From an uncultured Enterobacterales bacterium (GTDB lineage Bacteria > Myxococcota_A > UBA796 > UBA2385), in assembly GCA_964502005.1 (NCBI GenBank), contig CAZCUX010000001.1, positions 196,653-260,652 of the forward strand: DNA of 64,000 nt, written 5' to 3'. The notes under the pieces are model-generated. The model was not told the origin of the DNA and ran no database searches. It was given only the letters and a program-made list of their open reading frames with translations. This document shows, in pieces, positions 8,867 to 40,897 of this stretch (its first letter is position 1; every line of letters starts with the position of its first letter). Made by a program: the position numbers and the translations under genes.

Positions 8867-8903
8867 TCGTATAGTTTTGCAGAGAGATAGATAAACAATA
8901 CGC

Positions 8904-11818: not shown

Positions 11819-11824
11819 GGGCCC

Positions 11825-12562
11825 TCAGTTGGCTTGGCGGGTGGGACGAAGCAAGATGTCGTGGACTTGCACCCTTTGGGCGGCGCCGAGCGCAAACACC
11901 ACGCCCTCAGCGACATCTTGGGACGTGAGGACGGGGTAGCGGCCATAGGTTTCGGCGGCTGCGATGCGTGACCGATGGTAAAGCTCGGCAAACTCCGTCT
12001 CGACAAAGCCGGGGCTGATGCTCGACACACGAATCGGGGAGTTGGCAGCGTGGAGCTCAAGGCGCAGCGCTTCCGTGAGCGCTTTGACGGCGTGCTTGGT
12101 CGCGGCGTACATGCCGCTGTCGGACGGAACGCGGTGGGCGGCCATGCTGCTGATGTGGATGACGTGTCCGCGGCCCCGTTTTTGCATGCGCCGTATGGCT
12201 TCCCGCGTGCAGATCGTGAGCGCCAGCACGTTGACTTCCCACATCTCGCGCCAATGCTCGGTATTGCCCGACATGAGCGGCGAGAGGTGGCCGAGGCCGG
12301 CGTTGTTGACCAGGATATCGACACCGCCGTATACTTGCTCTATCTCCGCAAACATCCGTACAATGGCGCTTTCATCGCGCAGGTCGCATACAATCGGGTG
12401 AAAGCGAGCGCCCAATCGGTCGCGAAGCTGGTGCAAGCGCTCGGGACGGCGGGCGCAGCCCACCACGCGCAGGCCTTCGGTATGGAGGCGGCGCACGATG
12501 GCCTCGCCAATGCCGCTGGATGCGCCGGTGACCAATGCGACGGCGTTGGTCCAGCGGTCCAT
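11825..12562 (-). CDS. SDR-family oxidoreductase
   Basis: Start ATG 12562 (MDRWTNAVALVTGASSGIGEAI). Further motifs are NNAGLG and the catalytic YAATKHAV. The upstream part of the track ORF is not protein-like. Confidence 0.85.
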   Translation of the reverse strand: MDRWTNAVALVTGASSGIGEAIVRRLHTEGLRVVGCARRPERLHQLRDRLGARFHPIVCDLRDESAIVRMFAEIEQVYGGVDILVNNAGLGHLSPLMSGNTEHWREMWEVNVLALTICTREAIRRMQKRGRGHVIHISSMAAHRVPSDSGMYAATKHAVKALTEALRLELHAANSPIRVSSISPGFVETEFAELYHRSRIAAAETYGRYPVLTSQDVAEGVVFALGAAQRVQVHDILLRPTRQAN

Positions 12563-12778
12563 GCCGAATGCTTCTTCGGTGCCACAATCGACAATGTCGG
12601 AATCGGGATCGAGGGAATCCAACGGGTCTCCGGGGTAGTCAGAAAAACGCAGAGAATCGGGCAACAACCAACAGCCACGACTTCCTACCAGGGTATTACG
12701 AGCGCGACGTGGTCGGCACATGCAGCGCGTTGCTGGAAGTTGCGGTCTACGGACGCACCGTCAAAGGTCGGGAGGCCC

Positions 12779-27733: not shown

Positions 27734-27826
27734 AACCCAACGGCACGCGGGCCCGCTGGCGGATACAAGGGTCGGAGAACGGCCGGGGAATGGTTGCCCG
27801 GCACCGCTCCCTCGTTGGAGGCCCCG

Positions 27827-28744
27827 ATGCCGACTCCGAACCCTGGTGGTGGCCGCATTGTCGCCGGCGCCATCGCTCCTCACCCGCCCCATTTGGTCTA
27901 CGCGGAAAATCCTCCCCAAAATGAACCGCGGGCGGAGTGCGGGTGGGAGAACCTTCGGTGGGGCTATGAGCGCCTTCGTCGCAATCTCAGCGCCCTGGAC
28001 ATCGACGTTATCGTGGTGCATTCCCCCCACTGGAAGACGTCCCAGGGCCACCATTTGTTGGCGGCGCCGCATTTCAAGTCCTTGAGCGTCGACCCCATCT
28101 TCCCGAACTTGTTTCGGTACCACTACGACCTCGCGGTGGACGTCGCGCTCGCAGAAGCCATCGCCGAAGAAGGCGGCCAAGCGGGCCTCACGATGCAGCT
28201 CATGCGGAATCCCGACTTCCGCGTGGACTATGGCACCATTACGTCCTGCCATCTCACGCGCCCCCAGTGGGACATCCCGATTGTCGCGATTTCCTCCAAT
28301 CGGGTCTATTTCGATTATAACAATGATGTGGGCGACCGCCAAATGGTTGCGCTTGGACGCGCAACGCGGCGCGCAGTCGAGCGATTGGGGCGCCGAGCGT
28401 TGTTGTTGGCAAGCAATTCTTTGTCACACCGCCACTTCACGGACGAGTCCGAGCTTCCCGAGGACATGTCCAAAGAGCGTATCTACCATCACGGCCAGTA
28501 CATCTGGGACATGCACGTGCTCGACTTGATGAAGAAGGGCCGCTGTCGGCAATTGATGGCGGAGATGCCTGACTTCATCGAGCACGCGACCAGCGAAGCC
28601 AAAGACGGCAGCTTGTCTTGGTTGATGGGGGCTCTGGAGTTCCCCGACTATCCCGCGGAAGTACACGCTTACGGGACCGTCATTGGTACCGGAAATGCCG
28701 TGGTGGAGTGGCAGCCCCCCGTTGTCGGGATGGAGGCACGATGA
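27827..28744 (+). CDS. LigB-type extradiol ring-cleavage dioxygenase, catalytic (AmnB/beta-like) subunit
   Basis: GGAGG lies 6 nt upstream of ATG 27827. Blocks: GAIAPHPPHLV, IVVHSPHW and SNSLSHRH, which carry the His residues expected for the LigB-family Fe site and catalytic base. Confidence 0.75.
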   Translation: MPTPNPGGGRIVAGAIAPHPPHLVYAENPPQNEPRAECGWENLRWGYERLRRNLSALDIDVIVVHSPHWKTSQGHHLLAAPHFKSLSVDPIFPNLFRYHYDLAVDVALAEAIAEEGGQAGLTMQLMRNPDFRVDYGTITSCHLTRPQWDIPIVAISSNRVYFDYNNDVGDRQMVALGRATRRAVERLGRRALLLASNSLSHRHFTDESELPEDMSKERIYHHGQYIWDMHVLDLMKKGRCRQLMAEMPDFIEHATSEAKDGSLSWLMGALEFPDYPAEVHAYGTVIGTGNAVVEWQPPVVGMEAR

Positions 28745-30177
28745 CTGTCGAGCTTGCCCTGATTGTACCTCGGATGCCGCATCCGCTGCTGTGTCCCGAT
28801 GCGAGCCCCGGCTACCGCGCCCTGGCCGACGCCTACGCCGAAGCGCGCCGGCGCATCGCCGACCTCAAACCCGACGTGCTCGTGCTGTATAGCGCCGGTT
28901 GGCCTTGTGTGGTGGGGCACCAGATTCAGGCCGACCCCAACCCCACCTGGGTCCACGTCGACCAGGACTTTCACGCGCTCGGGAGCATTCCGTATTCCTT
29001 GCGCATGGACCCCCAGTTCGGCGCGGATTGGTGCCAATCTGCGACAGAACGTGGCCTGCATTGCCGAACCGTCGCCTACCGCGGCTTTCCCATCGACACC
29101 GGTACGGTCACCGCGTTGAAGCTGCTCGACCCCGACTCCCGTATTCCGGCCAGCGTGGTGTCATGCAATATGTATGCCGACCGTGCCGAGACGGTCGTTT
29201 TGGGCAAGGCGGCGGCCGATGTGCTGTCGCAGCGGGGCATACGCGCGGTCGCGGTCGCCGTGACCAACCTGAGCCATCGGCTCCTCCCGGTCCCGGTGCC
29301 TCCGTCCGAAGACCGCTTTGCGTCGATGAAAGACGACGAGTGGGTGCGGAAGCTGCTCGAAATCTTGGGCGAAGGGCGCCTCGAAGACGTGAGCCAGCTT
29401 GCGCGAACGTTTACCGCCCAAGCCCACGCCGATTCCAAGCTCAAGGCCATTTGGTGGCTCGCGGCGGTCTCGGGTGCCCACAACCGGTACCAAGGCGAAG
29501 TTCTCGCGTATGCGCCGGTGCAAGGAACCGGCTGTGCTGTGGTGGCCTTGACGCCCGACCGCACTGGCGCGGCGGGGCTTGAGTTCGATGAAGACGACGT
29601 AGACGTGTTCCGCGGCGACCGAAACGTGCTGGCCGCGGCACCGGGCCAAACCGTCGAAGTGGCACCCGCGCCCGTCGCGAAGCCCGCGCCCAAAGCGGCC
29701 GCGCCCGTTGCGCGCGCCGGTCGGGTGGATGTTGCCGCGGACCAAGCGCCGAAGCCCGTCGGCGCGTACCCCCACGCCCGCCGTGTCGGCGACCTGTTGT
29801 TCTTGTCCGGGGTCGGCCCGCGGCAGCCCGGCACCGACGCCATTCCGGGCGGTCCCGTGCGCGACGCCGCCGGTCAACCGGTCGATTACGACATCGAGGC
29901 GCAGACCCGCGCCGTCATCGAAAACGTGCGCCGCATCTTGGAAGCCTCGGGGTCCTCCCTTGACCGCGTGCTGGACGTCACCACGTTTCTGGTCAACATG
30001 GACCGCGACTTTGCAGGCTACAACAAGGTCTACGGTGAGATGCTCGGCAAGGTCGGGCCCACCCGCACCACGCTCGCGATTCGCGCGTTGCCGACCCCCA
30101 TCGCGATCGAGCTAAAGGTGGTCGCCGCTGCTGGAGATGTCGATATGGCGCGGCTTACCGGTGGACAACGTGGCTGA
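28741..30177 (+). CDS. Fusion protein: LigB-type non-catalytic (AmnA/alpha-like) subunit plus C-terminal RidA/YjgF-family deaminase
   Basis: ATG 28741 overlaps the upstream stop (ATGA). The N-domain parallels the previous gene, but the HSPHW position reads YSAGW. An Ala/Pro linker (APAPVAKPAPKAAAPVA) follows. The RidA blocks are PKPVGAYPHARRVGDLLFLSGVG, IEAQTRAVIENVRRIL and GPTRTTLAIRALPTPIAIELKVVA. Confidence 0.75.
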   Translation: MTVELALIVPRMPHPLLCPDASPGYRALADAYAEARRRIADLKPDVLVLYSAGWPCVVGHQIQADPNPTWVHVDQDFHALGSIPYSLRMDPQFGADWCQSATERGLHCRTVAYRGFPIDTGTVTALKLLDPDSRIPASVVSCNMYADRAETVVLGKAAADVLSQRGIRAVAVAVTNLSHRLLPVPVPPSEDRFASMKDDEWVRKLLEILGEGRLEDVSQLARTFTAQAHADSKLKAIWWLAAVSGAHNRYQGEVLAYAPVQGTGCAVVALTPDRTGAAGLEFDEDDVDVFRGDRNVLAAAPGQTVEVAPAPVAKPAPKAAAPVARAGRVDVAADQAPKPVGAYPHARRVGDLLFLSGVGPRQPGTDAIPGGPVRDAAGQPVDYDIEAQTRAVIENVRRILEASGSSLDRVLDVTTFLVNMDRDFAGYNKVYGEMLGKVGPTRTTLAIRALPTPIAIELKVVAAAGDVDMARLTGGQRG

Positions 30178-30838
30178 CCGTCGCCTCTACGACATCACGC
30201 CGCGCATCAGCCCGCGGTTGGCGGTGTTCCCTGGCGACACAGCCTTTTCGCGCGCCGTGCTGCTTTCGATGGCCGACGGCGCCAACATCGACCTCTCGTC
30301 GATGACGACAACATTGCACCTGGGCGCCCACGCCGATGCACCGTCGCACTACACCCCCCATGGCGTCAGCATCGCCGACCGCGACCCCCGGCGCTATCTC
30401 GGTCGCTGCCAGGTGGTGTCGGTCCCCGATACCCGTGGCCGAAGGGTCACGGTCGACGACCTTCGCGAGCCCGTGATGGCGCCGCGCGTGCTGTTTTTTA
30501 CGCACTCGTTTCCCGCGCCGGAGCAGTGGAATGGCGACTTCGCTTCTTTGTCGCCAGAGCTGATTGCGCATCTTCACGACGATTGCGGTGTGTCGCTCGT
30601 GGGCATCGATACGCCGAGCGTTGACCCCGAGACCGACCGGGACCTGCCCTCCCACGCTGCTCTCGCGGCGCGCGATATGGCGGTGCTCGAAGGTTTGGTG
30701 CTGCACGATGTCCCGCCGGGCATCTACACCCTGATTGCGCTGCCCTTGCCCATCGAAGGCGGCGACGCGAGCCCGCTCCGCGCGGTGTTGCTCGAAGGCG
30801 ATTGGGGCCTCGATGCCCTCGCGCTCGCCGGGTCTTGA
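30137..30838 (+). CDS. kynB: Kynurenine formamidase (cyclase-family arylformamidase)
   Basis: LYDITPRISPRLAVFPGDTAF...TTLHLGAHADAPSHY contains the HxGxHxDxPxH metal motif, and GIDTPSVD is present. The start is uncertain: ATG 30137 overlaps the upstream gene by 41 nt, and GTG 30170 overlaps it by 8 nt. Confidence 0.8.
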   Translation: MSIWRGLPVDNVADRRLYDITPRISPRLAVFPGDTAFSRAVLLSMADGANIDLSSMTTTLHLGAHADAPSHYTPHGVSIADRDPRRYLGRCQVVSVPDTRGRRVTVDDLREPVMAPRVLFFTHSFPAPEQWNGDFASLSPELIAHLHDDCGVSLVGIDTPSVDPETDRDLPSHAALAARDMAVLEGLVLHDVPPGIYTLIALPLPIEGGDASPLRAVLLEGDWGLDALALAGS

Positions 30839-31897: not shown

Positions 31898-32716
31898 CTA
31901 GCGCCCTTGGAGGCGGTTCACTTCGCGGGCAATGCGTGCGTCTTTGTCGCTCGAAAGCTGCGCCAGCTCGGGCAACGTCGCGGCGCGTGCGGCGTCGAGG
32001 TGCTGGAGGGTCCGCAGCGCCCGGAACCGAACGTCGGCGTCGGGGTCGGCCAAGAGCGCGCGGATTGCGTCGAACGCACCGGTAATGCCTGCATAGCCGA
32101 TGCTGCGTGCCGCCTCTGCGCGCACGGCGGCGCTCTCGTCGTGCAAGGACGGGAACACGAGGTCGGCAAGTGCAGCGCCTTGCTTGTGGTTGCCGACGAC
32201 GCGAATGGCGGCCAGCCGAACGTCTTCGTCGTTGTCGCGTACGGCAAACGTCACGGCTTCCCGCGCGATGTCGACAGGCGCATCGCGCAGCACTTCGACC
32301 ATCATTCGCCGCACGAGGGCGTCTTCTTCGAGCTGCGCCATTCCGGCGACGGCCTCGGTCCAATCTCCGCCGGTTCGCGCCAGCGCGCCCAACAAGCCGA
32401 CGCGGGCTTCGGGGGCGTCTTGGCCGGACGCGATGCGCACGATGAGCGCACCCGCAGCTTCGGGAACGCGCCAATCGGGGTTGGTGAAGAGGGGTTGCCC
32501 GTTCCGGCTTGGCAAGGGGCCGTCGGTCGCGATGGCGTCGGCCAGACCCGGCGCGCCGGAAAGCGAGAGCTCTTCGGCGCTTTCGAGGGCGCGCTGGGCC
32601 CAGGCGGCATCAACGGACGTGAGGGGCGTCGACAGGCCGGCGAGTGCGGAGGGTGCGTAAAACGCGACCGCTGCGACGAACATCCGACCCAAAGAAAGAG
32701 AGGTGAAATCGCGCAT
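31898..32716 (-). CDS. HEAT-repeat protein with N-terminal signal-like segment
   Basis: There are repeated helical units with D-x-D/E-VR motifs: NDEDVRLAAIRVVG, DESAAVRAEAARSIG, DPDADVRFRALRTL and DKDARIAREV. The start lies 3 nt after the PAD-like gene stop. Confidence 0.7.
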   Translation of the reverse strand: MRDFTSLSLGRMFVAAVAFYAPSALAGLSTPLTSVDAAWAQRALESAEELSLSGAPGLADAIATDGPLPSRNGQPLFTNPDWRVPEAAGALIVRIASGQDAPEARVGLLGALARTGGDWTEAVAGMAQLEEDALVRRMMVEVLRDAPVDIAREAVTFAVRDNDEDVRLAAIRVVGNHKQGAALADLVFPSLHDESAAVRAEAARSIGYAGITGAFDAIRALLADPDADVRFRALRTLQHLDAARAATLPELAQLSSDKDARIAREVNRLQGR

Positions 32717-32719
32717 GGG

Positions 32720-34390
32720 TCAGTCCTCCAACAAATGACGGGCGTTGTCCCACCAGCCACCCACGGGGGTGCGCCGGGTGTTGCTGCCGCAGTGAACCTC
32801 GCCCCACATCAGGTGGTACGAGTCGAAATCGTCGAGCCAATGGGGCGTGACGTTCGACGGCAACATCGCTTCAAACTCGATGACGAAGGGGTCGGACGAC
32901 ACCGATGCGCTCGACCCGCGCAAGAAGGGGTCGGGGATAAACAAGTCTGCCGAGGAGTGGTCGTCCCAGGTGTTGACCTGCATGTTGACGGTGCCCGTGA
33001 TGAGCGAAAGGGCCACGCCACCGCACTCGCTGCTGCGCTCGAACACTGCGGGAACGCGCACGATGTCGCCTTCATCGAGACCGAGGGCCGCCTTGAAGCG
33101 GTCGATGTTCGGCTCGATGTTTTCGTCCATCAGGTCGCGGTTGTAGGACCACAAGGGCCCGTCGTCGACCATCTCGCCGATATTGCTGAAACCGTGCCCG
33201 TATTCGTACCGGGGCAGGTAGGTGGAGGGGTCGAGGGACTCCAAGAAGGTACGGCCAAGGTCGATGTCAGCGACGTAGAGGCGGAAGCCTTTGGGGGCGC
33301 TGGGGTCAGGCAAGAAGGTCGAGAACTCGTCGACGTGGCCGACGCACAACCAGCCAATGTCGAGGGTGAAGGGCGCCTGTACCTTTTGCTCCGCCAAAAA
33401 CTCTTGCATCCCGGCGGTCATCGCATAACGACCGGAGTCGCCGTAATATGCGCGGCCAAAGGGGTATTCGACGCCATCAACGGTGACGGGGGGGCTGACC
33501 TCCAGGTTGCCGAAGCTATCTTGGGAGGTCGGACGGCCGGTTCCCCAGGTCCAGACGCCGGTGTCGGGGCCCCACATGACCTCTTCGGGGACGATGTCGA
33601 GGTAGCGGTCGCCGCCCGAGCGAATGCTGTCGATGACGAACTGCATCTCGTAGCCGGGAGCGGTGAGGGTGCCGTACTCCAGCTCGTCTTGAATCCAGAC
33701 ATCGTAGCCGACGGTGCGCCCGTTGACGGTGCCAAAGTCGCCGCCGAGAATGTCTTGGAAGCCATCGATGAACGCTTCGTTTCCGTAGCGCCCGGTGCCG
33801 GTGTCGACGGCGACGGCCCACTGCGCCTCTTGGAGGTGGTGGTTCAGAATCAGCGGTGCCGAGAGCAAGCCAATGCTGTGGGTGTCGAGCGTCGCGCCGT
33901 CTGCGCCAATGTGTTCGAGCGTGAGCTCCGCGGTCGACATCGGCAGCTTGAACTCAACGGCGATGGTGGTGGGGTCCACCGAAGACGAGAGGTCGACAGT
34001 AAGGGTGCTGTCGTCAAGGGCGACCTCGCCGCCAACCCACACGCGTACTTCGTCGATGTCGCCGTCGAGAGTCAAGCGCACAATCTCGCCCTCGCCGAGC
34101 ATCCCGAATGCCTCGGCGTCCCAGCCGAGGGGGACGTGCTCGCCGTCGTCGGGCGAGAGGTCTTCCCAGTCGTGCTGTGCGTTTTCGTCGTCGTCATCGA
34201 GGTTCGCGACGCCCAACACTTCGTCGCCCAACGTTGAGAACAACGTTACAGGCTCCGCGGTGGTCTCGGAGGTGTTGCCCGTACTGGACCCCCCCTCTTC
34301 TTTGGTGTTGCCATTGCAGGCAGCAAAAAGAACAGACGCGAGCCCCAGCGCAATCGCTGGTCCCAGGCGTCCAGGTTGGAAATCCGGCAT
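32720..34390 (-). CDS. Protein-arginine deiminase (PAD) family lipoprotein
   Basis: The lipobox is LGLASVLFAAC. PAD catalytic-domain blocks are DSFGNLEVSPPVTVDGVEYPFGR, VQAPFTLDIGWLCVGHVDEF, KGFRLYVA and the C-terminal YHLMWGEVHCGSNTRRTPVGGWW. Confidence 0.8.
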   Translation of the reverse strand: MPDFQPGRLGPAIALGLASVLFAACNGNTKEEGGSSTGNTSETTAEPVTLFSTLGDEVLGVANLDDDDENAQHDWEDLSPDDGEHVPLGWDAEAFGMLGEGEIVRLTLDGDIDEVRVWVGGEVALDDSTLTVDLSSSVDPTTIAVEFKLPMSTAELTLEHIGADGATLDTHSIGLLSAPLILNHHLQEAQWAVAVDTGTGRYGNEAFIDGFQDILGGDFGTVNGRTVGYDVWIQDELEYGTLTAPGYEMQFVIDSIRSGGDRYLDIVPEEVMWGPDTGVWTWGTGRPTSQDSFGNLEVSPPVTVDGVEYPFGRAYYGDSGRYAMTAGMQEFLAEQKVQAPFTLDIGWLCVGHVDEFSTFLPDPSAPKGFRLYVADIDLGRTFLESLDPSTYLPRYEYGHGFSNIGEMVDDGPLWSYNRDLMDENIEPNIDRFKAALGLDEGDIVRVPAVFERSSECGGVALSLITGTVNMQVNTWDDHSSADLFIPDPFLRGSSASVSSDPFVIEFEAMLPSNVTPHWLDDFDSYHLMWGEVHCGSNTRRTPVGGWWDNARHLLED

Positions 34391-34480
34391 GTCAACCTCA
34401 CGTTCGCAGGCTCGAACCGTGTCCTGTGTGGAATAGCCGATTGCGAGCGGAGTCGGCTACCCTTTCCTCGTTTTGCCTGT

Positions 34481-35674
34481 TTACAAACGGGGACGGCCTC
34501 GAATTCCGAAGTCGTAAAAATCGACATCCACGACCGGGGGCACCAGCTCCCGCGGCAACAGCAGCGTGCGAACGCTCCACAGGTCGGCGAAGATGCGGTG
34601 GCGGGTGGTGCGGTCGAGATAGTCCACGCCGCTTGAGCCTCCGGTGCCCACGCGCCGGCCAATGACGCGCTCGACCATCCGGGCGTGGCGCGTTCGGAAC
34701 AACACAAGCTGTTCTTCGACTTCGACGACTGTATCCAACAATAGCCGAGGCCATGCGAGCAAGGGCAACGAGCGGTGGCTCTCGATGAACAGCAACGCGG
34801 CGCGAATCCGTCGGCGTCGCGCACGGGCGGCGGTTATGTCGGCTCCGGCGGGAAGGTTGGACTCATCGAGGTCTTCGGCATTGAGAAACTGGCGTGCGGT
34901 GATGCGCGATTGGGCGAAGCGAACCTCGACCTCTTCGGCGGCGGTCAAGCCGGTGGCGACCAAGCGCTCGGTTTGGCGCTGGTAATGCACATCCAGAGCT
35001 TGCTCGTATTCATCGAGAAATGCGTCGACCACGTCGTTGTCATTGGCATCACCCGGAGACGACCCATTGATGGGCGTGCGGTACAGCCAATCGTGGAGGC
35101 CTGCGCGAATGGTGTGGCCTTGCTGTGCATCCGCGGTGGCCTTCGACAGCCGCTCCCAGGCCAATGCGCCTGTTGGCGAATGTTGGGCGAGTTCGCGGAT
35201 ATGGTCGAGCGCATCGGTCTTCCCGTAGGTTTCCCGGTGGTCGGGCTGGAGACCAAGGACGATCTCCAGCTCGCGCATCTGAAAGCTCTGAAACCCACTC
35301 GCGGGCATCAGCTTTTCGCGGAAGCCCAAAAAGTCCTGGGGTGTGAGCGTCTCAATGATGTGAAACTGCTCGACCGCGAGGCGAAGAATTTGCCCCACAC
35401 GGCGCAAGTGGTGGACCACATGGGGAATGGTCGCTTCATCGACGGGGCCTTGGAGAAACAACGAGACCGTCTCGCGTAGCTCCCGCAGCACCATCTTGAA
35501 CCACAGCTCATAGGCTTGATGGACGATGATGAACAGCAGCTCATCGGGAACCATCGACGCTTCGTCGCCCTCTAGGCCTCCTTGGAGCGCAAGAAGTTTG
35601 TCGAGGGAGAGGTAGTCCCAATAGTTCGGGACACGGGGCGTAGGCGCCGAAGGGGAGGGGGGAAGGGTCGTCAC
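34481..35674 (-). CDS. kynA: Tryptophan 2,3-dioxygenase
   Basis: GGAGG lies upstream of GTG 35674. YWDYLSLDKLLALQ...DELLFIIVHQAYELWFKMVLRELR is the TDO signature helix. The C-terminal GGSSGVDYL block carries the heme-proximal region. The 134 codons upstream in the track ORF are not protein-like. Confidence 0.8.
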   Translation of the reverse strand: MTTLPPSPSAPTPRVPNYWDYLSLDKLLALQGGLEGDEASMVPDELLFIIVHQAYELWFKMVLRELRETVSLFLQGPVDEATIPHVVHHLRRVGQILRLAVEQFHIIETLTPQDFLGFREKLMPASGFQSFQMRELEIVLGLQPDHRETYGKTDALDHIRELAQHSPTGALAWERLSKATADAQQGHTIRAGLHDWLYRTPINGSSPGDANDNDVVDAFLDEYEQALDVHYQRQTERLVATGLTAAEEVEVRFAQSRITARQFLNAEDLDESNLPAGADITAARARRRRIRAALLFIESHRSLPLLAWPRLLLDTVVEVEEQLVLFRTRHARMVERVIGRRVGTGGSSGVDYLDRTTRHRIFADLWSVRTLLLPRELVPPVVDVDFYDFGIRGRPRL

Positions 35675-35807
35675 GGTGCCTCCAAGTGACAACACTGTAA
35701 TGCTGTCCGGGCCGCTGCGTGATGGCCGGACCCCGGTGGAGGGTACGAATGTGCTACCTTTCCGCGCACTTTGGCGGCCGTCGTCGTTCGCCAGCAGGAG
35801 GCAAGCA

Positions 35808-36917
35808 ATGATTCGTCCGGTCCGTATGGTGGCGCTGGCTTCGGTTGTGGGTGTTTGGGGTGGTTGTGACAAAGCGTCTACGGACCCTGCCGTGCCCAAA
35901 GCAGCGGTAGAGAAGGCGTTTGCAGACGCAAACCCCGGCGGTCGCTCGTCCGTGGAGCTGGGCGGTCGAAATGTGTGGCTCGAAGCGGGGATGTTTGTCC
36001 CCGGATGTCTGGAGTCCAAAGACCTCGCATTCAACGACATTCCCGCCGAGCGTCCTTCGGGATCTGCGCCGCGCATTTCGCCGACGTATGCGAACCAGCG
36101 CTACATCACGGGCACAAGCGAGCGCGGCGTTTGTGTGGTGTTGGGCGCCGACCCCCAAGCCACGGTCACCAACGTGGTGTACGACGGTGCCGAATGGGTC
36201 GTCGATTACACTGTCGCCGTCTCGGAGCCAACGCCTTGGTTTGAATGTTTGATGGACCGCATCAAAAACAACCAAGCCACGGTCAAAATCGCCGAGGACG
36301 GCACCGCGAGCGTGCAGCAGGACCTCACCTTGTTGCGGGGCGGCTGCTCCCTCGACCTGCCCAAAGATGTCGAGCGACGGGGGGGTGACCGCCCGACCGC
36401 GAAGCCTCCAAAGCCGCCCACCGCCGAGGCCGTCGCCGCGCTCGCACGCGACTTCGACAAAGCGCTCTTTGAGGCAGACTTTGTGGCCGCGCGAAAGTTG
36501 GTTCGCTGTGTCAACTTGTTTGAATCGCCCATGTGGGATGCGTGCGCCCTTTCGGAGCTGATTGCGGTGGGGCCGTCGTTTTCGGGCGAGCCGCGTGGAC
36601 GCGACGGCACCCCTTGGATGGAATACGTCGTGCGCGGCCCGGATGAGTTTGCGCGGATTGTGCCGGAACGTGGTGACCCTACGCTTTTTCACGTCATGAT
36701 GAAGCACAAGCGGAGCGGCGCCGACCGCAGCTTTACGGTGCAGTGGGCAGACGGAAAGTGGCATTTGTTTGGCGTGGTGCAGCTCAAGGCCGAAGGGCTC
36801 ACGGCGATGCGGTTTGTCAACGACCTGCACGACCGCAAGAAGATGGACATTCTTGAGCGACGCATCAAGGGCGACAAGATTGACCATCTCGGCAATCCCA
36901 TCGAAGAAGAGGAATAA
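35808..36917 (+). CDS. Lipoprotein, function unknown
   Basis: AGGAGG lies upstream of ATG 35808. The lipobox is MIRPVRMVALASVVGVWGGC. Confidence 0.7.
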   Translation: MIRPVRMVALASVVGVWGGCDKASTDPAVPKAAVEKAFADANPGGRSSVELGGRNVWLEAGMFVPGCLESKDLAFNDIPAERPSGSAPRISPTYANQRYITGTSERGVCVVLGADPQATVTNVVYDGAEWVVDYTVAVSEPTPWFECLMDRIKNNQATVKIAEDGTASVQQDLTLLRGGCSLDLPKDVERRGGDRPTAKPPKPPTAEAVAALARDFDKALFEADFVAARKLVRCVNLFESPMWDACALSELIAVGPSFSGEPRGRDGTPWMEYVVRGPDEFARIVPERGDPTLFHVMMKHKRSGADRSFTVQWADGKWHLFGVVQLKAEGLTAMRFVNDLHDRKKMDILERRIKGDKIDHLGNPIEEEE

Positions 36918-36922
36918 CGAAC

Positions 36923-38674
36923 GTGAAGGTGACCGTCGAGGGACCGCTGGTGGACGCGGATGCCGCGTGGCGCTTGATTTCCGAGACGGGCTTGTTGTTG
37001 CGCCTCGCGGGCGCGCCGCCGGTACGCATTCGCCTCGCCGAAGACGGCGATGGTGAGGTGATTCCCAGCGGTACGATGCTCGGCCCTGCCGGGCTGCGGC
37101 ACGCATTCGAAGACGCGGGCCTCTCGTGGGTCCGCGGGCAGCACTTGCACCTGGAGCGGCGGATTCAAGGTCCGCTGCTGCGGAGCATTCGCCTGACCGC
37201 GACCCTCACCCCCGCAGACGGCGGAGTGCAGCCGACCCTCACGTTGGAGGTCGAGCCGCGCATCGGCGCGAGCAGCGGCTTGGTTTCCCTCTACACCCGC
37301 GGCGTCGTAAGCGGCTGGAACCGCGAGCTGGCGGCACTTCCGGGGCCGGGACGGATGGGGGAGCCCCGCGTCCGGCGCGCGTTGGACATCACGACACTCG
37401 CGGCCTTGTCGCGGTGGAGCGAGCGCGGCGCAGGAACGGCCCTGCGGGCGCGGGTGGAGCGCTGGATGCGCCAAGCGCCGCTCCGGCAGCTTCGACGCTT
37501 GTCCCCCCTGGGATTGGCCGAAGGTTGGCAAGAGGACGGTGAGCTCGACCGCGCATCGGCGGTGTTGGACGAGTTGGTAGAAGGCATCGCGGCGGGCGCC
37601 CTGGACCTCCATTGGGCGGTGGTTTGCCCGCGCTGTGCCGCGCCTGTGCAGCAAGTCGAGGCCCTCAATCGTCTACCGGAGCAAGCGCGATGCCCGTGGT
37701 GTGGGGTCACGAGCCCGGTAGACCTTGTCTCGACCGTAGAAGCGGTGCTCGCGGCGCCAGGCTGGCTTGGGTCGGGCGAGCCGTCTTGCCACTCGTTGGC
37801 CGCCGCATCGCCGGAAACAGTCGCGGCGGTCTTGTTGTCGCCCCGCAGCGCCCATTCTTTTGCGCTTTCACTCCCGCCAGGGGAGTATCGCCTCGTTGCC
37901 GGTGCGGGTGCCGGACGCCTCGATGGTGTGCTGCAGGTCACCGAGGGCGGCCCTGCTGCGGCCCAATGGACCCCCGGACAGGGTCCGGTGGCTGTGGGGA
38001 CAGGTGTGGTGTCGCTGCTGGTGCAAAACCCCACGGGACGCCGCTTGTTCGTGCGAATGCTCGAAACCTCCGGTTTGCGACCGCGCACACCCGCGTTTGC
38101 GTTGTTGTGCCGACCGCGGTTTCAAGCCCGGCTCGGCGGCCAAGCGCCGGCGCCCGATGTGCTCCTCGCCGTCGGCGATGCCACCGTTATGTTTACTGAC
38201 CTTACCAAGACCGCGCAGTACTTTTATCGCCATGGCGACCGCGCGGGCATTCACCATATTCGGCGTCGTTTGGACATCATCGTGCGGGGCGGCCAATCGG
38301 CCGGCGGCATTCGCGTGAAGACATTGGGCGACGGCGTGCTGATGTTGTTTTCTACGCCTCTGGCCGCAGTGCAGGCGGCGCTCGCGATACTCGCAGGACC
38401 GGCGGCGGGGAAGGGCGATGAGCCCCATTTGCGCGTGGGCATTGCCCGTGGCGCGCTTCTGACCGAACACACCGACGCGGCGGGCTTTGATTGCTCGGGT
38501 GCGACCGTGTCGGAAGCAGCGCGTGCGGTGTACGGCGCGGCGCCCAATCAGCTCAGGATGACGGCCAGCGTCGGAGACCACCCTGCGGTTCGGTCATGGT
38601 TGGCCCATGTGGAAAAGGAAGTATTGACCGACAAAGATGGCCTTCGGACTTTGTGCGTCGAGGCCATTTATTAG
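36923..38674 (+). CDS. Class III adenylate/guanylate cyclase with a large N-terminal region containing a Cys4 zinc-ribbon-like motif
   Basis: GTG start at 36923, 6 nt after the upstream stop. The Cys motifs are CPRC...(20 aa)...CPWC. The C-terminal catalytic blocks are TVMFTDLTKT and IRVKTLGDGVLMLF. Confidence 0.7.
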   Translation: MKVTVEGPLVDADAAWRLISETGLLLRLAGAPPVRIRLAEDGDGEVIPSGTMLGPAGLRHAFEDAGLSWVRGQHLHLERRIQGPLLRSIRLTATLTPADGGVQPTLTLEVEPRIGASSGLVSLYTRGVVSGWNRELAALPGPGRMGEPRVRRALDITTLAALSRWSERGAGTALRARVERWMRQAPLRQLRRLSPLGLAEGWQEDGELDRASAVLDELVEGIAAGALDLHWAVVCPRCAAPVQQVEALNRLPEQARCPWCGVTSPVDLVSTVEAVLAAPGWLGSGEPSCHSLAAASPETVAAVLLSPRSAHSFALSLPPGEYRLVAGAGAGRLDGVLQVTEGGPAAAQWTPGQGPVAVGTGVVSLLVQNPTGRRLFVRMLETSGLRPRTPAFALLCRPRFQARLGGQAPAPDVLLAVGDATVMFTDLTKTAQYFYRHGDRAGIHHIRRRLDIIVRGGQSAGGIRVKTLGDGVLMLFSTPLAAVQAALAILAGPAAGKGDEPHLRVGIARGALLTEHTDAAGFDCSGATVSEAARAVYGAAPNQLRMTASVGDHPAVRSWLAHVEKEVLTDKDGLRTLCVEAIY

Positions 38675-38790: not shown

Positions 38791-39645
38791 CTAAAGGTCC
38801 TCGTTGAGCACGCCAAATCCCCCTTGCACAAACTCGCGCAGGTATCGGAAATCGCTGGTCCGTGCCTCTTCAGGCGTTCCTTGAAACGCGATGCGTTTGT
38901 CGTATACCATCGCCAACCGGTCCGTCACGGTGAAGACCGTGTCCATATCGTGCGTCACCACAATAGAAGTAACGCCCAGCTTCTCTTGCAACGACAAGAT
39001 AATCGTGTTGATTCGCCGCACGTTGACGGGGTCAAGGCCGGTGGTGGGTTCGTCATACAAGATAACTTCTGGCTTGATGGCAATCGCCCGTGCTAGCCCG
39101 ACGCGCTTTCGCATTCCGCCCGATAGCTGCGCGGGCTTTTTGTTTTCGATGCCTGGCATGTCAACCATTTCGAGGACTTCGGCCACGCGGGCGTCCATCT
39201 CGGCCTCGGTGCCCCAGCCGTGCTCCCGCAGCGGATACTTGATGTTTTCTGCGACGGACATCGAGTCGAAGAGCGCAGCACCTTGAAACAGCATCGCGAC
39301 GCGGCTTCGCAATCGCAGCAGCGCCGTTTCGTCCATCTCGGCTACGTTTTCGCCGAAAACGCGGATATTGCCCCGGTCGATTTCAAGGAGTCGAATCAGG
39401 AGCTTGAGCATTACGCTCTTTCCGACACCGGACCCGCCGATGATGGTCAAGGTCTCGCCGGGGTATACGTCGAGGTCGAGTCCTCGGTAAATGTTGAGGG
39501 CGCCGAAGGATTTGTGCACATCCCGAAAGGTAATGATGGGCGTGGCACCTGGCCGTTCATGGGGACGAACGCGGTCGGCAGCGCGAAAGGCCTCGGCGCG
39601 CTCGCGAACGTGTGCAGGCAGGTCGGGCGAGGGGGCGTGGGACAT
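38791..39645 (-). CDS. mlaF: MlaF-like ABC transporter ATP-binding protein
   Basis: Walker A is GGSGVGKS. The signature is LSGGMRKRVGLARA. Walker B is ILYDEPTTGLD. The overall pattern is that of MlaF/Ttg2A. Confidence 0.8.
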   Translation of the reverse strand: MSHAPSPDLPAHVRERAEAFRAADRVRPHERPGATPIITFRDVHKSFGALNIYRGLDLDVYPGETLTIIGGSGVGKSVMLKLLIRLLEIDRGNIRVFGENVAEMDETALLRLRSRVAMLFQGAALFDSMSVAENIKYPLREHGWGTEAEMDARVAEVLEMVDMPGIENKKPAQLSGGMRKRVGLARAIAIKPEVILYDEPTTGLDPVNVRRINTIILSLQEKLGVTSIVVTHDMDTVFTVTDRLAMVYDKRIAFQGTPEEARTSDFRYLREFVQGGFGVLNEDL

Positions 39646-40409
39646 TAGGCGTAGACCGCGGTGAGGACTTGCGTGAGGAGGAAGTCTGCGACGAGGATAG
39701 TGACGGAAATATAGACGACGGACGCTGTGGTTGCGCGTCCGACACCCTCGGTTCCGCCGTGGGTCCGCATGCCATTCCAGCAGGCAATCAATGCGATGAT
39801 TGAGCCGAAAAACAGACTCTTGATGAGGCCGTGAACCACGTCAGATACGAGCAAGGCGTCGAGCATGGTTTGTACGCTAAACTTGAGCGTCATTCCCACC
39901 TGCGCCACCGTGATGACCACGCCGCCGACGCACCCGACGACGTCTGCCATGATGGTCAATAGGGGAATTGCGATGGTCATCGCGACCACGCGCGGCAGCA
40001 CGAGCTTTCTCACGGGGTCGGCGCCGAGGGCACGAATGGCGTCAATCTGCTCTGTGACCGCCATACTGCCGATTTCCGCGGTGATGCCCGCGCCCACGCG
40101 CCCGCCAACCAAGAGGCTCGTCAGGACGGGGCCAAGCTCGCGTACAATGCCGATGCCAACGAGCTTTCCGGTATACATTGTCGCCCCAAAGGGCTTCAGG
40201 CCCACGGCAAACTGGGTCGCCATGACCATACCGGTAAACACCGCTGTGAGGAGGGTAATGGACCAAGAGTCCACGCCGCCTTGCTCCAACTGCACCAGCG
40301 TGAGACGCCACTCAAACGGTCGACGAAAAAGCTCTCGTACGGTCTGCATAGTGAGCAGGGTGATTTCACCCAGCGCCGAAAAGAACGTGACAAGAGGGTT
40401 GGTGCTCAT
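39645..40409 (-). CDS. mlaE: MlaE-like ABC transporter permease
   Basis: The blocks VRELGPVLTSLLVGGRVGAGITAEIGSMAVTEQIDAIRALG are highly characteristic of MlaE. ATG 40409 overlaps the upstream stop (ATGA). The stop overlaps the mlaF start (TAATG). Confidence 0.85.
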   Translation of the reverse strand: MSTNPLVTFFSALGEITLLTMQTVRELFRRPFEWRLTLVQLEQGGVDSWSITLLTAVFTGMVMATQFAVGLKPFGATMYTGKLVGIGIVRELGPVLTSLLVGGRVGAGITAEIGSMAVTEQIDAIRALGADPVRKLVLPRVVAMTIAIPLLTIMADVVGCVGGVVITVAQVGMTLKFSVQTMLDALLVSDVVHGLIKSLFFGSIIALIACWNGMRTHGGTEGVGRATTASVVYISVTILVADFLLTQVLTAVYA

Positions 40410-40897
40410 GAGCGCCGGGCCTGAAAGCCGTCGACGACATTTCGAAATGCGGGCCAACCGGCGTCAAAGGTTGTCGGGGGCGCAAAATAGAGGAGGTCGT
40501 AGAGGCAGTCGTTCTTCTTGGTGACGACGGCGCCTACCTTGACGGCGACGCCATCGATGTTGCCATCCCAGATTCGCACCAGTGCATCGCGGTTGTCGAG
40601 GCGTAGCATCTCGTCGCGAGTAGGTAAACCACTGGCGATGCCAAAAGTCAAGTGTGTCGCAAGGTCTTCGAGTCTGCCGTCTTCGTACCGTTTCCCACAG
40701 TTTGCGCTGGTGTAAATGGTCCCAAATATTTCTGGGTGATACCAGGCATGGTCCGCCGAACCCGGCGACTGCGCCTTCCAGCCCTCGCCAGGATTGCCGA
40801 CGGAATAGCCAGGGGAAACGCGCCTATCGGTTTTGTGTCGACATGCGCCGAGCGCGGCAAATCCGACCAACACCATCATCGCCCGTGAATGGGTCAT
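40406..40897 (-). CDS. Lipoprotein, function unknown (163 aa)
   Basis: Start ATG 40897. The lipobox is MMVLVGFAALGAC. The gene is coupled by ATGA at both ends. Confidence 0.65.
   Translation of the reverse strand: MTHSRAMMVLVGFAALGACRHKTDRRVSPGYSVGNPGEGWKAQSPGSADHAWYHPEIFGTIYTSANCGKRYEDGRLEDLATHLTFGIASGLPTRDEMLRLDNRDALVRIWDGNIDGVAVKVGAVVTKKNDCLYDLLYFAPPTTFDAGWPAFRNVVDGFQARRS

What the first reader, a model, noticed from the sequence alone, without database searches (positions are those of the whole stretch)
32720..34390. Animal-type protein-arginine deiminase (PAD) homologue encoded as an exported lipoprotein
The C-terminal half carries blocks that are almost verbatim those I recall from human PAD4. 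These are DSFGNLEVSPPVTV-G-EYP-GR and VQAP...L.VGHVDEF..F.P....KGFRL. The C-terminal tail YHLMWGEVHCGSNTRRTPVGGWW compares with PAD4 [24 protein letters not shown]. The catalytic Cys and the GHVDEF His context are therefore intact. The N-terminus has a lipobox (LASVLFAAC) followed by a very acidic stretch (ANLDDDDENAQHDWEDLSPDDGE), so the enzyme should act outside the cytoplasm. PAD-type deiminases differ from Porphyromonas PPAD and agmatine-deiminase-like enzymes. As far as I know they are sporadic in bacteria and have no established bacterial substrate.
Basis: partly seen in the sequence, partly recalled or inferred. Interest (0 to 1): 0.7.

Follow-up and report, generated by a model that had tools for sequence, protein, structure and literature searches.

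The report
Exported bacterial PAD enzyme with HEAT partner
This gene in an uncultured myxobacterium encodes an intact, calcium-site-bearing relative of the animal enzymes that turn protein arginine into citrulline; it is made as a membrane-anchored exported lipoprotein and is always paired with a small exported HEAT-repeat protein, so it is a new member of a bacterial enzyme family that is already catalogued but whose function is unstudied.

Summary
ORF 32720-34390 (-) encodes a 556-aa protein that hits Pfam PAD (PF03068, E=6e-61) and human PAD4 (E=2e-41; AF2 model TM 0.77 to PAD4). The catalytic Asp/His/Asp/Cys tetrad is intact and conserved in 53/53 homologues, and the lipobox Cys in 51/53.

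Three corrections:
- The "acidic stretch" is not a linker. It is the Ca3-Ca5 binding motif (N63/D65/D67/D74 = PAD4 N153/D155/D157/D165) of a shortened PAD_M domain.
- The protein has two domains (PAD_M-like + PAD_C) and lacks PAD_N.
- Bacterial PF03068 PADs are already catalogued (837 in Harris 2020; Cummings 2021, whose alignment contains members of this family), and a Streptomyces PAD has a known substrate, the lasso peptide citrulassin.

New here:
- The gene is followed (3-nt gap) by an exported HEAT-repeat gene in 19/19 evaluable related loci, and one contig carries an in-frame PAD-HEAT fusion.
- The partner has an Arg invariant in 20/20 sequences, in a β-hairpin loop.
- The family keeps Ca sites 2 and 4, said to be exclusive to the cyanobacterial/animal clade, and groups beside that clade in NJ trees.

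Verdict: a real, probably active, Ca-dependent envelope deiminase. It is a new member of a known kind, of moderate interest.

The parts
32720..34390 (-). PAD gene (556 aa plus stop codon): lipoprotein precursor of a two-domain protein-arginine deiminase
   Evidence: ORF list. Pfam PF03068 E=6e-61. PAD4 E=2e-41. AF2 model pLDDT 88, pTM 0.85. Foldseek to PAD4: TM 0.77 over 541 columns.
34396..34399 (-). Shine-Dalgarno-like GAGG, 6 nt upstream of the ATG
   Evidence: Read directly from the sequence.
34316..34390 (-). Signal peptide with lipobox, residues 1-25 (…LASVLFAA-C25). C25 is the predicted lipidated first residue of the mature protein.
   Evidence: It has a positive n-region (R8), a hydrophobic h-region and F-A-A-C. 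Cys is present in 51/53 homologues, with L/A/G-type residues at positions -3 to -1. The AF2 model shows a helix at 12-22 with low pLDDT. Lipoboxes are also seen in the related loci.
34229..34315 (-). Low-complexity tether, residues 26-54
   Evidence: pLDDT is below 50 and the region is not conserved.
33851..34228 (-). PAD_M-like Ig/β-sandwich domain, residues 55-180, shortened relative to PAD4 residues 113-300
   Evidence: The AF2 model has 8 β-strands at pLDDT above 90. The Foldseek alignment to PAD4 spans this region. hhalign against a PAD4+cyanobacterial PAD_M profile: Prob 94.9%, E=4.8e-8. The Pfam PAD_M HMM and single-sequence searches were negative.
34139..34204 (-). Ca3-Ca5 binding motif N63-L-D65-D-D67-…-D74-W-x-D77-…-D82-x-E84.
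   Evidence: N63, D65, D66, D67 and D74 are invariant in 53/53; D82 and E84 are always D or E. They align to PAD4 N153/D155/D157/D165/D168/D179.
32723..33850 (-). PAD_C catalytic α/β-propeller domain, residues 181-556. Catalytic residues D235 (33686-33688), H352 (33335-33337), D354 (33329-33331), C534 (32789-32791). Ca1 ligands Q234/E238/E297. Ca2 ligands E236/D254/S255. Ca4 ligand D276.
   Evidence: Pfam hit covers residues 173-547. Residue mapping and conservation are; codon coordinates were verified.
33023..33346 (-). Span bounded by two extra family-invariant cysteines: C349 (33344-33346, in WLC-VGHVDEF) and C456 (33023-33025, in SECGG). They are a candidate disulfide of an exported enzyme.
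   Evidence: Both are 53/53 in the family and absent from the animal, cyanobacterial and actinobacterial references. The disulfide itself is untested because no model coordinates were available.
31898..32716 (-). Partner gene: exported HEAT-repeat protein, 272 aa, starting 3 nt after the PAD stop (TGA CCC ATG)
   Evidence: Pfam HEAT_2 E=1e-13. AF2 α-solenoid, pLDDT 91. It lies directly downstream of the PAD gene in 19/19 evaluable related loci. A natural PAD-HEAT fusion, P0288, exists.
32639..32716 (-). Sec-type signal peptide of the partner, residues 1-26 (…APSALA|G)
   Evidence: Read from the sequence. pLDDT is below 50. Orthologues carry signal peptides, and L009 has a lipobox.
32486..32518 (-). 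Partner signature motif P67-x-x-[ST]-R71-x-G73-x-x-[RL]-F77, a β-hairpin with the invariant Arg71 (32504-32506) in its loop
   Evidence: R71 is 20/20 and G73 is 18/20. Strands at 68-69 and 75-76, pLDDT about 92-94. The motif is kept as the first element after the linker in the fusion protein P0288.
34481..35674 (-). Upstream tryptophan 2,3-dioxygenase gene (context only). It is syntenic in close relatives but not linked family-wide.
   Evidence: Pfam PF03301 E=2e-54. TDO-PAD-HEAT order is seen in L013, L015 and L016. It is absent near the PAD gene in L001-L012, L014 and L017-L020.

Best explanation
The gene encodes a catalytically competent, Ca2+-dependent peptidyl-arginine deiminase of the PF03068 family. 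Its architecture is a lipoprotein signal peptide, a flexible tether, a shortened PAD_M domain and the PAD_C domain, with no PAD_N.

Proposed mechanism:
1. After Sec export and lipidation at Cys25, the enzyme is anchored to an envelope membrane facing the periplasm or the outside.
2. High extracytoplasmic Ca2+ fills sites Ca1-Ca5 and orders the active site.
3. Cys534, helped by His352, Asp235 and Asp354, hydrolyses the guanidinium group of protein- or peptide-bound arginine to citrulline plus ammonia.
4. The enzyme works as a unit with the co-translated, separately exported HEAT-repeat protein encoded 3 nt downstream. That partner most likely binds the enzyme as a targeting or regulatory subunit.

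Shown here: family membership, fold, conservation of the catalytic and Ca-site residues, conservation of the lipobox, the conserved gene pair and the fusion. Inferred: enzymatic activity, Ca dependence, lipidation and localisation, physical PAD-HEAT binding, and the identity of the substrates (presumed to be envelope or extracellular proteins).
For: - Family and fold: Pfam PAD E=6e-61. PAD4 E=2e-41, or 8e-84 with the family profile. AF2 pLDDT 88 with Foldseek TM 0.77 to Ca-bound and substrate-bound PAD4 structures.
- Active site: the catalytic tetrad plus W232, V350, R257 and R262 (= PAD4 W347, V469, R372, R374) are conserved.
- Calcium sites: ligands of Ca1 (Q234/E238/E297), Ca2 (E236/D254/S255), Ca3-5 (N63/D65/D67/D74/D77/E84/E146) and Ca4 (D276) are present, and mostly invariant across 53 homologues.
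- Export: the lipobox Cys is in 51/53 homologues and lipoboxes occur in the related loci.
- Partner: PAD followed by HEAT in 19/19 evaluable loci, with gaps of -4 to +3 nt, while all other neighbours differ. Partner orthologues carry signal peptides.
- Fusion: an in-frame natural PAD-HEAT fusion has a single N-terminal lipobox and no second signal peptide.
- Partner fold: it matches αRep/HEAT protein-binding scaffolds.
Against: - No biochemical data exist for any member of this clade.
- No signal-peptide predictor could be run. The lipobox has F at position -3 and its only basic residue at position 8.
- The membrane (inner or outer) and the topology are unknown, and the +2 residue varies across the family (D/G/K/N).
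- PAD-HEAT binding could not be modelled: the read-through fusion was rejected and no multimer tool is available.
- The fusion is seen on a single 3.9-kb contig.
- More distant relatives (L022, L024) lack the partner.
- A catalytic thiol has to stay reduced in an oxidising compartment. PPAD shows this is possible (my own knowledge).
Confidence: 0.7

Rival explanations
1. The enzyme is an offensive or defensive effector. The exported PAD of a predatory myxobacterium neutralises foreign Arg-rich molecules, such as prey surface proteins or cationic antimicrobial peptides. The downstream exported HEAT protein is an inhibitor or immunity protein that shields the producer's own envelope.
For: Both proteins go to the same extracytoplasmic compartment. 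The gene order of enzyme followed by a small binding protein, with translational coupling, resembles toxin-immunity pairs. The partner is a pure protein-binding solenoid with an invariant Arg in a hairpin loop that could plug the active site. The named members are marine myxobacteria, Enhygromyxa and Plesiocystis, which are predators by my own knowledge.
Against: A natural covalent PAD-HEAT fusion is hard to reconcile with a stoichiometric inhibitor. Some loci have two PAD genes and one HEAT gene. There are no polymorphic-toxin or secretion-system genes nearby and no defence-library hit for the PAD. The enzyme is tethered by a lipid anchor rather than released.
Confidence: 0.15
2. It is a tailoring enzyme for a secreted ribosomal peptide natural product, as shown for the Streptomyces PAD that makes the citrulline of citrulassin.
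For: This is the only established in-vivo role of a bacterial PF03068 PAD, and there it acts on a distally encoded substrate (bioRxiv 10.1101/2020.07.16.207027). One related locus, L020, has radical-SAM/SPASM genes upstream.
Against: This family is separated from the actinobacterial class with 100% bootstrap support. No RiPP genes are conserved near it. It is a membrane-anchored periplasmic protein, and the only conserved neighbour is a 270-aa folded HEAT protein rather than a precursor peptide.
Confidence: 0.07
3. It acts on free L-arginine or another small guanidino compound for nitrogen or energy metabolism, rather than on peptidyl-arginine.
For: All guanidino-group-modifying enzymes share the same Cys/His/Asp chemistry (my own knowledge). 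Neighbouring genes in this lineage are amino-acid catabolic: TDO, a formamidase-like cyclase, LigB and RidA.
Against: The match is to PF03068, not to the ADI or agmatine-deiminase families; it is the only Pfam hit. The PAD4 residues that grip the substrate backbone (R372/R374 = R257/R262) are retained. The catabolic neighbours are not conserved across the family. The protein has a PAD_M domain and a lipid anchor.
Confidence: 0.05
4. It is a catalytically dead scaffold, as mammalian PADI6 is.
For: None beyond the precedent of PADI6, which appears among the PDB hits as 'Inactive protein-arginine deiminase type-6'.
Against: The catalytic tetrad and the Ca ligands are invariant in 53/53 homologues, whereas a reference with a degraded site (Lyngbya aestuarii) has visibly lost D473 and C645.
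Confidence: 0.02

Closest known systems
Human PAD4/PADI2 and other animal PADs (PF03068; three domains PAD_N-PAD_M-PAD_C)
   Same: The catalytic domain is the same: 35% identity to PAD4 and 40-42% to bird, amphioxus and annelid PADs. The D/H/D/C tetrad is identical, as are the substrate-binding W/V/R/R residues. Ligands for Ca1-Ca5 are retained, including the Ca2 triad E-D-S and the Ca4 'switch' Asp. The PAD_M-like domain superposes on PAD4.
   Different: There is no PAD_N domain and the PAD_M domain is shorter. The M-C connector is NHHLQ rather than TPNTQ. The protein has two extra invariant cysteines. It is exported and lipid-anchored rather than cytosolic or nuclear, and it has a dedicated HEAT partner gene.
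Cyanobacterial three-domain PADI ('cyanoPADI', Cyanothece; Clade Ai of Cummings et al. 2021, PMC8826395)
   Same: Both are bacterial, share about 40% identity in the catalytic domain, retain Ca sites 2 and 4, and fall on the same side of the deepest split in my NJ trees (100% bootstrap).
   Different: The cyanobacterial enzyme has a degenerate PAD_N and no signal peptide. It groups with animals (100%) to the exclusion of this family; the sister relationship to this family has only 68% support. No HEAT partner has been reported for it.
Two-domain actinobacterial/fungal PADI, including the Streptomyces PAD of citrulassin biosynthesis (Harris et al. 2020)
   Same: Both have a two-domain architecture without PAD_N and a His-rich M-C connector. 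N-terminal signal-like sequences are also visible in the published alignment. Neither is encoded next to its substrate.
   Different: That class has lost the Ca2 ligands (F/R in place of E/D), carries a ~20-residue Cys-bracketed insertion in the Ca3-5 loop, and is separated from this family with 100% bootstrap support. Its genomic contexts are reported as highly diverse, with no conserved partner.
Porphyromonas gingivalis PPAD (PF04371)
   Same: It is a functional analogue: an exported, cell-surface-associated bacterial peptidyl-arginine deiminase with a catalytic Cys (as described in the papers read).
   Different: It belongs to an unrelated sub-family with no PF04371 hit here. It is Ca-independent, has a different domain set, and is secreted by the T9SS rather than as a Lol-type lipoprotein.

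Membership tests
PF03068 protein-arginine deiminase (PAD_C catalytic domain) | Matches the Pfam PAD HMM above the gathering threshold over its full length | tested here: met
   207 bits against a cutoff of 25, E=6e-61, profile positions 7-394 of 395.
PF03068 protein-arginine deiminase (PAD_C catalytic domain) | Catalytic tetrad Asp350/His471/Asp473/Cys645 (PAD4 numbering) | tested here: met
   D235/H352/D354/C534 align to these residues and are invariant in 53/53 homologues.
PF03068 protein-arginine deiminase (PAD_C catalytic domain) | α/β-propeller fold superposable on solved PAD structures | tested here: met
   AF2 pLDDT 88. Foldseek top 50 hits are all PAD1-4; the best is 5n1b at E=7e-38 and TM 0.77.
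PF03068 protein-arginine deiminase (PAD_C catalytic domain) | Ca2+-dependent conversion of peptidyl-Arg to citrulline | not testable with these tools
   This needs a recombinant enzyme assay.
Three-domain animal/cyanobacterial PADI (Clade Ai, PMC8826395) | N-terminal PAD_N cupredoxin-like domain | tested here: not met
   The mature protein starts at C25, followed by a 29-residue disordered tether and then directly by the PAD_M-like domain. There is no PAD_N Pfam hit.
Three-domain animal/cyanobacterial PADI (Clade Ai, PMC8826395) | PAD_M middle domain | tested here: met
   hhalign Prob 94.9%, E=4.8e-8, and the Foldseek alignment spans the region. The Pfam PAD_M HMM itself does not hit, so the domain is divergent and shortened.
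Three-domain animal/cyanobacterial PADI (Clade Ai, PMC8826395) | Ca site 2 (E351/D369/S370) and the Ca4 'switch' Asp (PAD4 D388 / PADI2 D389) | tested here: met
   E236 53/53, D254 51/53, S255 53/53. D276 is present in the window protein and in 38/53 of the family.
Three-domain animal/cyanobacterial PADI (Clade Ai, PMC8826395) | Phylogenetic placement inside the clade | tested here: not met
   Animals plus Cyanothece form a 100% clade that excludes this family. The family is its neighbour, with sister status at 68% (NJ only).
Two-domain actinobacterial/fungal PADI (Clade B, PMC8826395) | Loss of Ca2 ligands (QDF…RS) and a Cys-bracketed insertion in the Ca3-5 loop | tested here: not met
   The window family has QDE…DS and no insertion. 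It is separated from this class at 100% bootstrap.
Two-domain actinobacterial/fungal PADI (Clade B, PMC8826395) | His-rich M-C connector strand (HHH motif) | tested here: inconclusive
   The window family has APLILNHHLQ: two of the three His residues and otherwise the same strand.
Bacterial lipoproteins (SPase II substrates) | n-region, h-region and lipobox [LVI…][ASTVI][GAS]-C within the first ~35 residues | tested here: met
   R8, hydrophobic residues 9-24, and F-A-A-C25. This fits the relaxed PROSITE-type pattern as I recall it. The Cys is in 51/53 homologues. There is a weak NCBIfam lipoprotein N-terminus hit, E=0.066. No SignalP or LipoP was available.
Bacterial lipoproteins (SPase II substrates) | Actual diacylglyceryl modification and globomycin-sensitive cleavage | not testable with these tools
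   This is experimental only.
PPAD / agmatine-deiminase-type (PF04371) | Match to the PAD_porph HMM | tested here: not met
   PF03068 is the only Pfam family returned at E<=1.

The most novel reading that the evidence does not exclude
The PAD-HEAT pair may be a dedicated two-component citrullination module. In this reading the partner's invariant hairpin Arg71 (motif [TS]-R-x-G) docks into the PAD active site as the cognate substrate or as a pseudosubstrate regulator. That would be the first genetically defined PAD-partner system in any organism. The lipoprotein family carrying it would also be the closest two-domain relative, and possibly the ancestor type, of the cyanobacterial/animal three-domain PADs.
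Probability: 0.2. Interest if true: 0.7.

Novelty: new member of a known kind. Interest (0 to 1): 0.4.

Why it matters
What PADs do outside animals is largely unknown; the only native bacterial substrate known for the PF03068 family is a Streptomyces lasso peptide.

- This family offers a tractable handle on that question: a strictly conserved, co-exported partner protein, once found fused to the enzyme, with an invariant arginine in an exposed-looking loop. That gives a testable hypothesis for a native partner or substrate, and cultured hosts exist (Enhygromyxa salina, Plesiocystis pacifica).
- An extracytoplasmic, Ca-rich location would explain in a natural way why an enzyme that needs Ca2+ far above cytosolic levels is useful to a bacterium.
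- The family also qualifies a published generalisation, that Ca sites 2 and 4 are exclusive to the cyanobacterial/animal clade. Its position beside that clade bears on the proposed horizontal origin of animal citrullination.

Tried and rejected
- **Complex modelling.** I tried to model a PAD-HEAT complex by translating through the in-frame stop (window:31898-34390:-). It was rejected because of the stop codon. No multimer tool or model coordinates are available, so neither the interface nor a C349-C456 disulfide could be tested.
- **N-domain searches.** Single-sequence phmmer and Pfam searches with residues 51-180 found nothing. Only profile-profile and structural comparison link this domain to PAD_M.
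- **Partner homologue search.** The word-indexed search for the HEAT partner was swamped by generic HEAT proteins, and only about 12 true orthologues were recovered.
- **Partner fold search.** It returned only designed αRep and armadillo scaffolds, with no functional clue.
- **Defence systems.** PADLOC gave no hit for the PAD and only generic HEAT hits for the partner.
- **Transcription signals and RNA genes.** The promoter/terminator scan was no better than shuffled sequence. Rfam and tRNA scans of the window were empty.
- **Metabolic linkage.** A link between the PAD and the adjacent TDO/kynurenine-type genes is rejected: that synteny is confined to close relatives.
- **Paralogue.** The second 556-aa ORF (6983-8653) is a PAS-REC-Hpt protein, not a paralogue.
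- **Published tree.** Cummings' tree files do not contain the names of the two members of this family, so their published placement could not be read.
Full report
**1. Observation.** The ORF is exactly where stated: 32720..34390 on the minus strand, 556 aa, with an ATG start and a GAGG 6 nt upstream. The match to protein-arginine deiminases is unambiguous:
- Pfam PF03068 at E=6.1e-61 over essentially the whole model.
- Human PAD4 at E=2.3e-41 for residues 230-548.
- E=8e-84 when a 53-sequence family profile is used; that alignment then runs from PAD4 residue ~109 to 660.
- No other Pfam family, including the PPAD type, is hit.
- The frame has GC3 of 0.82 and is the only plausible coding frame.

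**2. Anatomy of the protein.** An AlphaFold2 model built on the family alignment is confident (pLDDT 88.4, pTM 0.85). It divides into four parts:
- Residues 1-25 are a signal peptide ending in the lipobox F-A-A-C25.
- Residues 26-54 are disordered and unconserved, and serve as a tether.
- Residues 55-180 form an eight-stranded β domain.
- Residues 181-556 form the catalytic domain.

Foldseek against the PDB returns only PAD1-4 structures. The best is TM 0.77 over 541 aligned columns, so both folded domains superpose on PAD4's PAD_M and PAD_C. The β domain alone is not recognised by Pfam or phmmer. A profile-profile comparison does link it to the PAD_M of PAD4 plus cyanobacterial PADs (94.9% probability, E=4.8e-8, 114 columns), but not to the actinobacterial/fungal middle domain. 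There is no room for a PAD_N domain.

**3. The 'acidic stretch'.** In fact N63, D65, D66, D67 and D74 are invariant in 53/53 homologues, and D82 and E84 are always acidic. They align with PAD4 N153, D155, D157, D165 (and D168, D179), and the invariant E146 aligns with E252. By my knowledge of the PAD4 structures (Arita et al. 2004), these are the ligands of calcium ions 3-5. The stretch is therefore the calcium-binding loop of the PAD_M domain.

**4. Active site and the other calcium sites.**
- Catalytic tetrad: PAD4 D350/H471/D473/C645 correspond to D235/H352/D354/C534, conserved 53/53.
- Substrate contacts: W347/V469/R372/R374 correspond to W232/V350/R257/R262.
- Ca1: Q349/E353/E411 correspond to Q234/E238/E297.
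- Ca2: E351/D369/S370 correspond to E236/D254/S255 (53, 51 and 53 of 53).
- Ca4: D388 corresponds to D276, which is D in 38, N in 7 and G in 8 of 53.

Nothing suggests a pseudoenzyme. Besides the lipobox Cys and the catalytic Cys, the protein has exactly two cysteines, C349 and C456. Both are invariant in the family and absent from every reference class. A disulfide would suit an exported protein, but I could not test it because no coordinates were available.

**5. Export.** The lipobox Cys is present in 51 of 53 homologues, with L/A/G-type residues before it, and also in the ORFs of the related genomic loci. No dedicated predictor was available, so lipidation and the final membrane are inferences. 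The +2 residue varies across the family. From the published alignment I also noticed that actinobacterial and fungal PADs begin with signal-peptide-like sequences. Export may therefore be common among non-animal PADs rather than special to this one.

**6. Family, host and literature.**
- Family size: the protein has more than 1,000 relatives at E<1e-5 in the 90%-clustered database. An identical one sits on a Logan contig and the next best is 69% identical. An exhaustive HMMER scan finds 1,486 clusters at 50% identity at E<=1e-3, of which about 85-90 are full-length members of this family.
- Named members: Myxococcota MAGs, 'Deltaproteobacteria', and Enhygromyxa salina (43% identity). Several are already annotated by NCBI or JGI as 'protein-arginine deiminase (family protein)'.
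- Host: the window's COX1 is 100% identical to a protein on a 575-kb NCBI contig that also carries near-identical PAD and partner proteins. Its named relatives are Myxococcota MAGs. The host is therefore an uncultured, aerobic Myxococcota bacterium.
- Earlier surveys: Harris et al. 2020 collected 837 bacterial PF03068 PADs, showed that a Streptomyces PAD installs the citrulline of the lasso peptide citrulassin, and found the genomic contexts 'highly diverse'. Cummings et al. 2021 counted PADIs in 295 bacterial species (69 of them proteobacterial). They distinguished a three-domain cyanobacterial/animal clade from two-domain fungal, actinobacterial and proteobacterial PADIs, and showed that a Cyanothece enzyme is active and Ca-dependent.
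- This family in those data: their 150-sequence alignment contains two members of this family, labelled Plesiocystis pacifica and Sandaracinus amylolyticus.

No experimental work on this clade turned up.

**7. Where it sits among PADs.** I combined reference sequences transcribed from the Cummings supplement, PAD4 from the PDB alignment, and named representatives from the exhaustive search.
- Similarity: outside its own family, the window protein's closest relatives are animal PADs (bird PADI1 42%, amphioxus 42%, annelid 40%, human PAD4 35%) and a three-domain Cyanothece PAD (40%). These rank ahead of the Streptomyces, fungal and Myxococcus xanthus-type PADs.
- Trees: bootstrapped neighbour-joining trees (up to 42 sequences, 454 columns) recover the extended family at 100% and animals plus Cyanothece at 100%. 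The separation of both from the actinobacterial/fungal/M. xanthus class is also at 100%, and a sister relationship between this family and the cyanobacterial/animal group is at 68%.
- Diagnostic characters are mosaic. The Ca2 triad and the switch Asp, which Cummings et al. describe as exclusive to their Clade Ai, are present here. The Cys-bracketed insertion of the actinobacterial/fungal Ca3-5 loop is absent. The M-C connector strand (APLILNHHLQ), however, is of the actinobacterial/fungal His-rich type rather than the animal PW-IM-x-PNT type.

'Animal-type' is thus fair for the catalytic core and the calcium sites, but the protein is a two-domain neighbour of the animal/cyanobacterial clade, not a member of it. 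These are distance trees on a small, partly hand-copied sample and need confirming by maximum likelihood.

**8. The conserved partner.** The PAD stop codon is followed after 3 nt (TGA CCC ATG) by a 272-aa ORF (31898..32716) with HEAT_2 repeats (E=1e-13) and a Sec-type signal peptide.
- Conservation: tblastn and a family profile find the orthologous gene directly downstream of the PAD gene in every evaluable related locus. That is 11 of the 12 genome loci (the twelfth is cut off inside the PAD gene) and 8 of 8 metagenome and genome contigs, usually with a 4-nt ATGA overlap. All other neighbours differ.
- Variants: some loci have PAD-PAD-HEAT or PAD-HEAT-PAD arrangements.
- Partner features: orthologues carry signal peptides, and one has a lipobox. 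The AF2 model (pLDDT 91) is an α-solenoid resembling αRep/HEAT binding scaffolds. Ahead of the repeats lies a family signature, P-x-x-[ST]-R71-x-G-x-x-R-F, in which R71 is invariant in 20/20 sequences. It sits in the loop of a short β-hairpin.
- Fusion: one 761-aa protein (P0288) is an in-frame PAD-HEAT fusion. It has a lipobox at the N-terminus and a complete PAD, followed by a Gly/Pro linker and then directly TRAGTLRF and the HEAT repeats. It has no second signal peptide, and nothing in the other frames suggests a frameshift artefact. It is known from a single 3.9-kb contig.
- Limits: a more distant signal-peptide relative (L022) and a cytoplasmic relative on the cyanobacterial/animal side (L024) lack the partner, and a third case is truncated.

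The PAD-HEAT bicistron is therefore the conserved functional unit of the core family. I did not find it described in either survey; Harris et al. state the contexts are diverse.

**9. Other context.** The upstream tryptophan 2,3-dioxygenase gene, and the cyclase/formamidase-like, LigB-RidA and LigB genes downstream, are syntenic only in the closest relatives (L013, L015, L016). They are absent elsewhere, so I reject a functional link. Promoter and terminator scans were uninformative.

**10. Mechanism and rivals.** I commit to a Ca-activated envelope peptidyl-arginine deiminase that works together with its HEAT partner (confidence 0.7).
- The chemistry follows from the conserved PAD4-like site.
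- The calcium dependence follows from the complete ligand set.
- The location follows from the conserved lipobox. An extracytoplasmic, Ca-rich compartment makes physiological sense for an enzyme class that needs far more Ca2+ than cytosol provides; this last point is inference.
- The partner is most simply a binding subunit. Whether it targets, regulates or is itself modified at R71 is open, and I give the R71-docking idea about 0.2.

Rivals:
- A predation or defence effector with HEAT as inhibitor or immunity protein (0.15; weakened by the fusion and by loci with two PADs and one HEAT).
- RiPP tailoring as in Streptomyces (0.07).
- Small-molecule guanidino substrates (0.05).
- A dead scaffold (0.02).

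**11. Verdict.** It is a new member of a known and already annotated kind. The conserved exported HEAT partner, the fusion, and the retention of 'animal-only' calcium sites in a two-domain bacterial PAD are modest new points that make the biology of bacterial citrullination more testable. Interest 0.4.

Noticed in passing
window 27794-30838 and 34481-35674: A tryptophan/kynurenine-type gene set flanks the PAD-HEAT pair: TDO (34481-35674, -), a PF04199 cyclase/kynurenine-formamidase-like gene (30137-30838, +), a LigB-RidA fusion (28618-30177, +) and LigB (27794-28744, +). The same set is syntenic in L013 and L015 but not family-wide.
   Followed up: partly
window 36923-38674 (+) and 35676-36917 (+): A DUF5939 plus adenylate/guanylate-cyclase domain protein is preceded by a 413-aa ORF with no Pfam hit. 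They are divergent from TDO, and the same pair sits at the equivalent place in L013.
   Followed up: no
window 33023-33025 and 33344-33346 (PAD C456, C349): Two cysteines are invariant in this PAD family (53/53) and absent from the animal, cyanobacterial and actinobacterial references. They may form a disulfide specific to the exported enzymes. More distant ~500-aa relatives mostly share the pair.
   Followed up: partly
L001 3975-8129; L002 4924-9386; L011 ~8001-13358: Tandem duplications of the PAD gene occur with a single HEAT partner: PAD-PAD-HEAT, PAD-HEAT-PAD and PAD-PAD-HEAT(divergent).
   Followed up: partly
L021 940-3225 (P0288): A natural in-frame PAD-HEAT fusion of 761 aa, with one lipobox and a Gly/Pro linker. 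It is seen on only one Logan contig (SRR19603259).
   Followed up: yes
Cummings et al. 2021, Suppl. File 3 versus L003: The sequence labelled Sandaracinus_amylolyticus_DSM_53668 in the published alignment has an N-terminus (…ALSLVGMIVAPLSLAGCKGDDKEDVGDAGEADTGD…) identical to the Enhygromyxa salina DSM 15201 ORF in L003. This may be a labelling slip in the supplement. Only the N-terminal ~40 residues were compared.
   Followed up: partly
Published alignment read: Streptomyces, Kineosphaera, Austwickia and fungal PADs begin with signal-peptide-like hydrophobic N-termini, whereas the M. xanthus-type PADs do not. Export may be widespread among non-animal PADs.
   Followed up: no
L020 1041-3127: Two radical-SAM genes (one with a SPASM domain) and a carbamoyltransferase lie just upstream of the PAD-HEAT pair in one MAG. 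This is a RiPP-like context seen only in this locus.
   Followed up: no
window 6983-8653 (-): A second ORF of exactly 556 aa is a PAS-receiver-Hpt signalling protein, not a PAD paralogue. The equal length is a coincidence.
   Followed up: yes
window 38791-40457 (-): MlaE permease and MlaF-like ABC ATPase genes lie about 4.5 kb from the PAD gene. Homologues also lie near the PAD gene in L015, L002 and L008. This is probably lineage synteny.
   Followed up: no
one search hits P0326-P0373: Very long proteins (870-2,447 aa, unnamed metagenomic sequences) carry a C-terminal PAD domain that is 34-43% identical to the window's catalytic domain. Their N-terminal parts were not examined.
   Followed up: no
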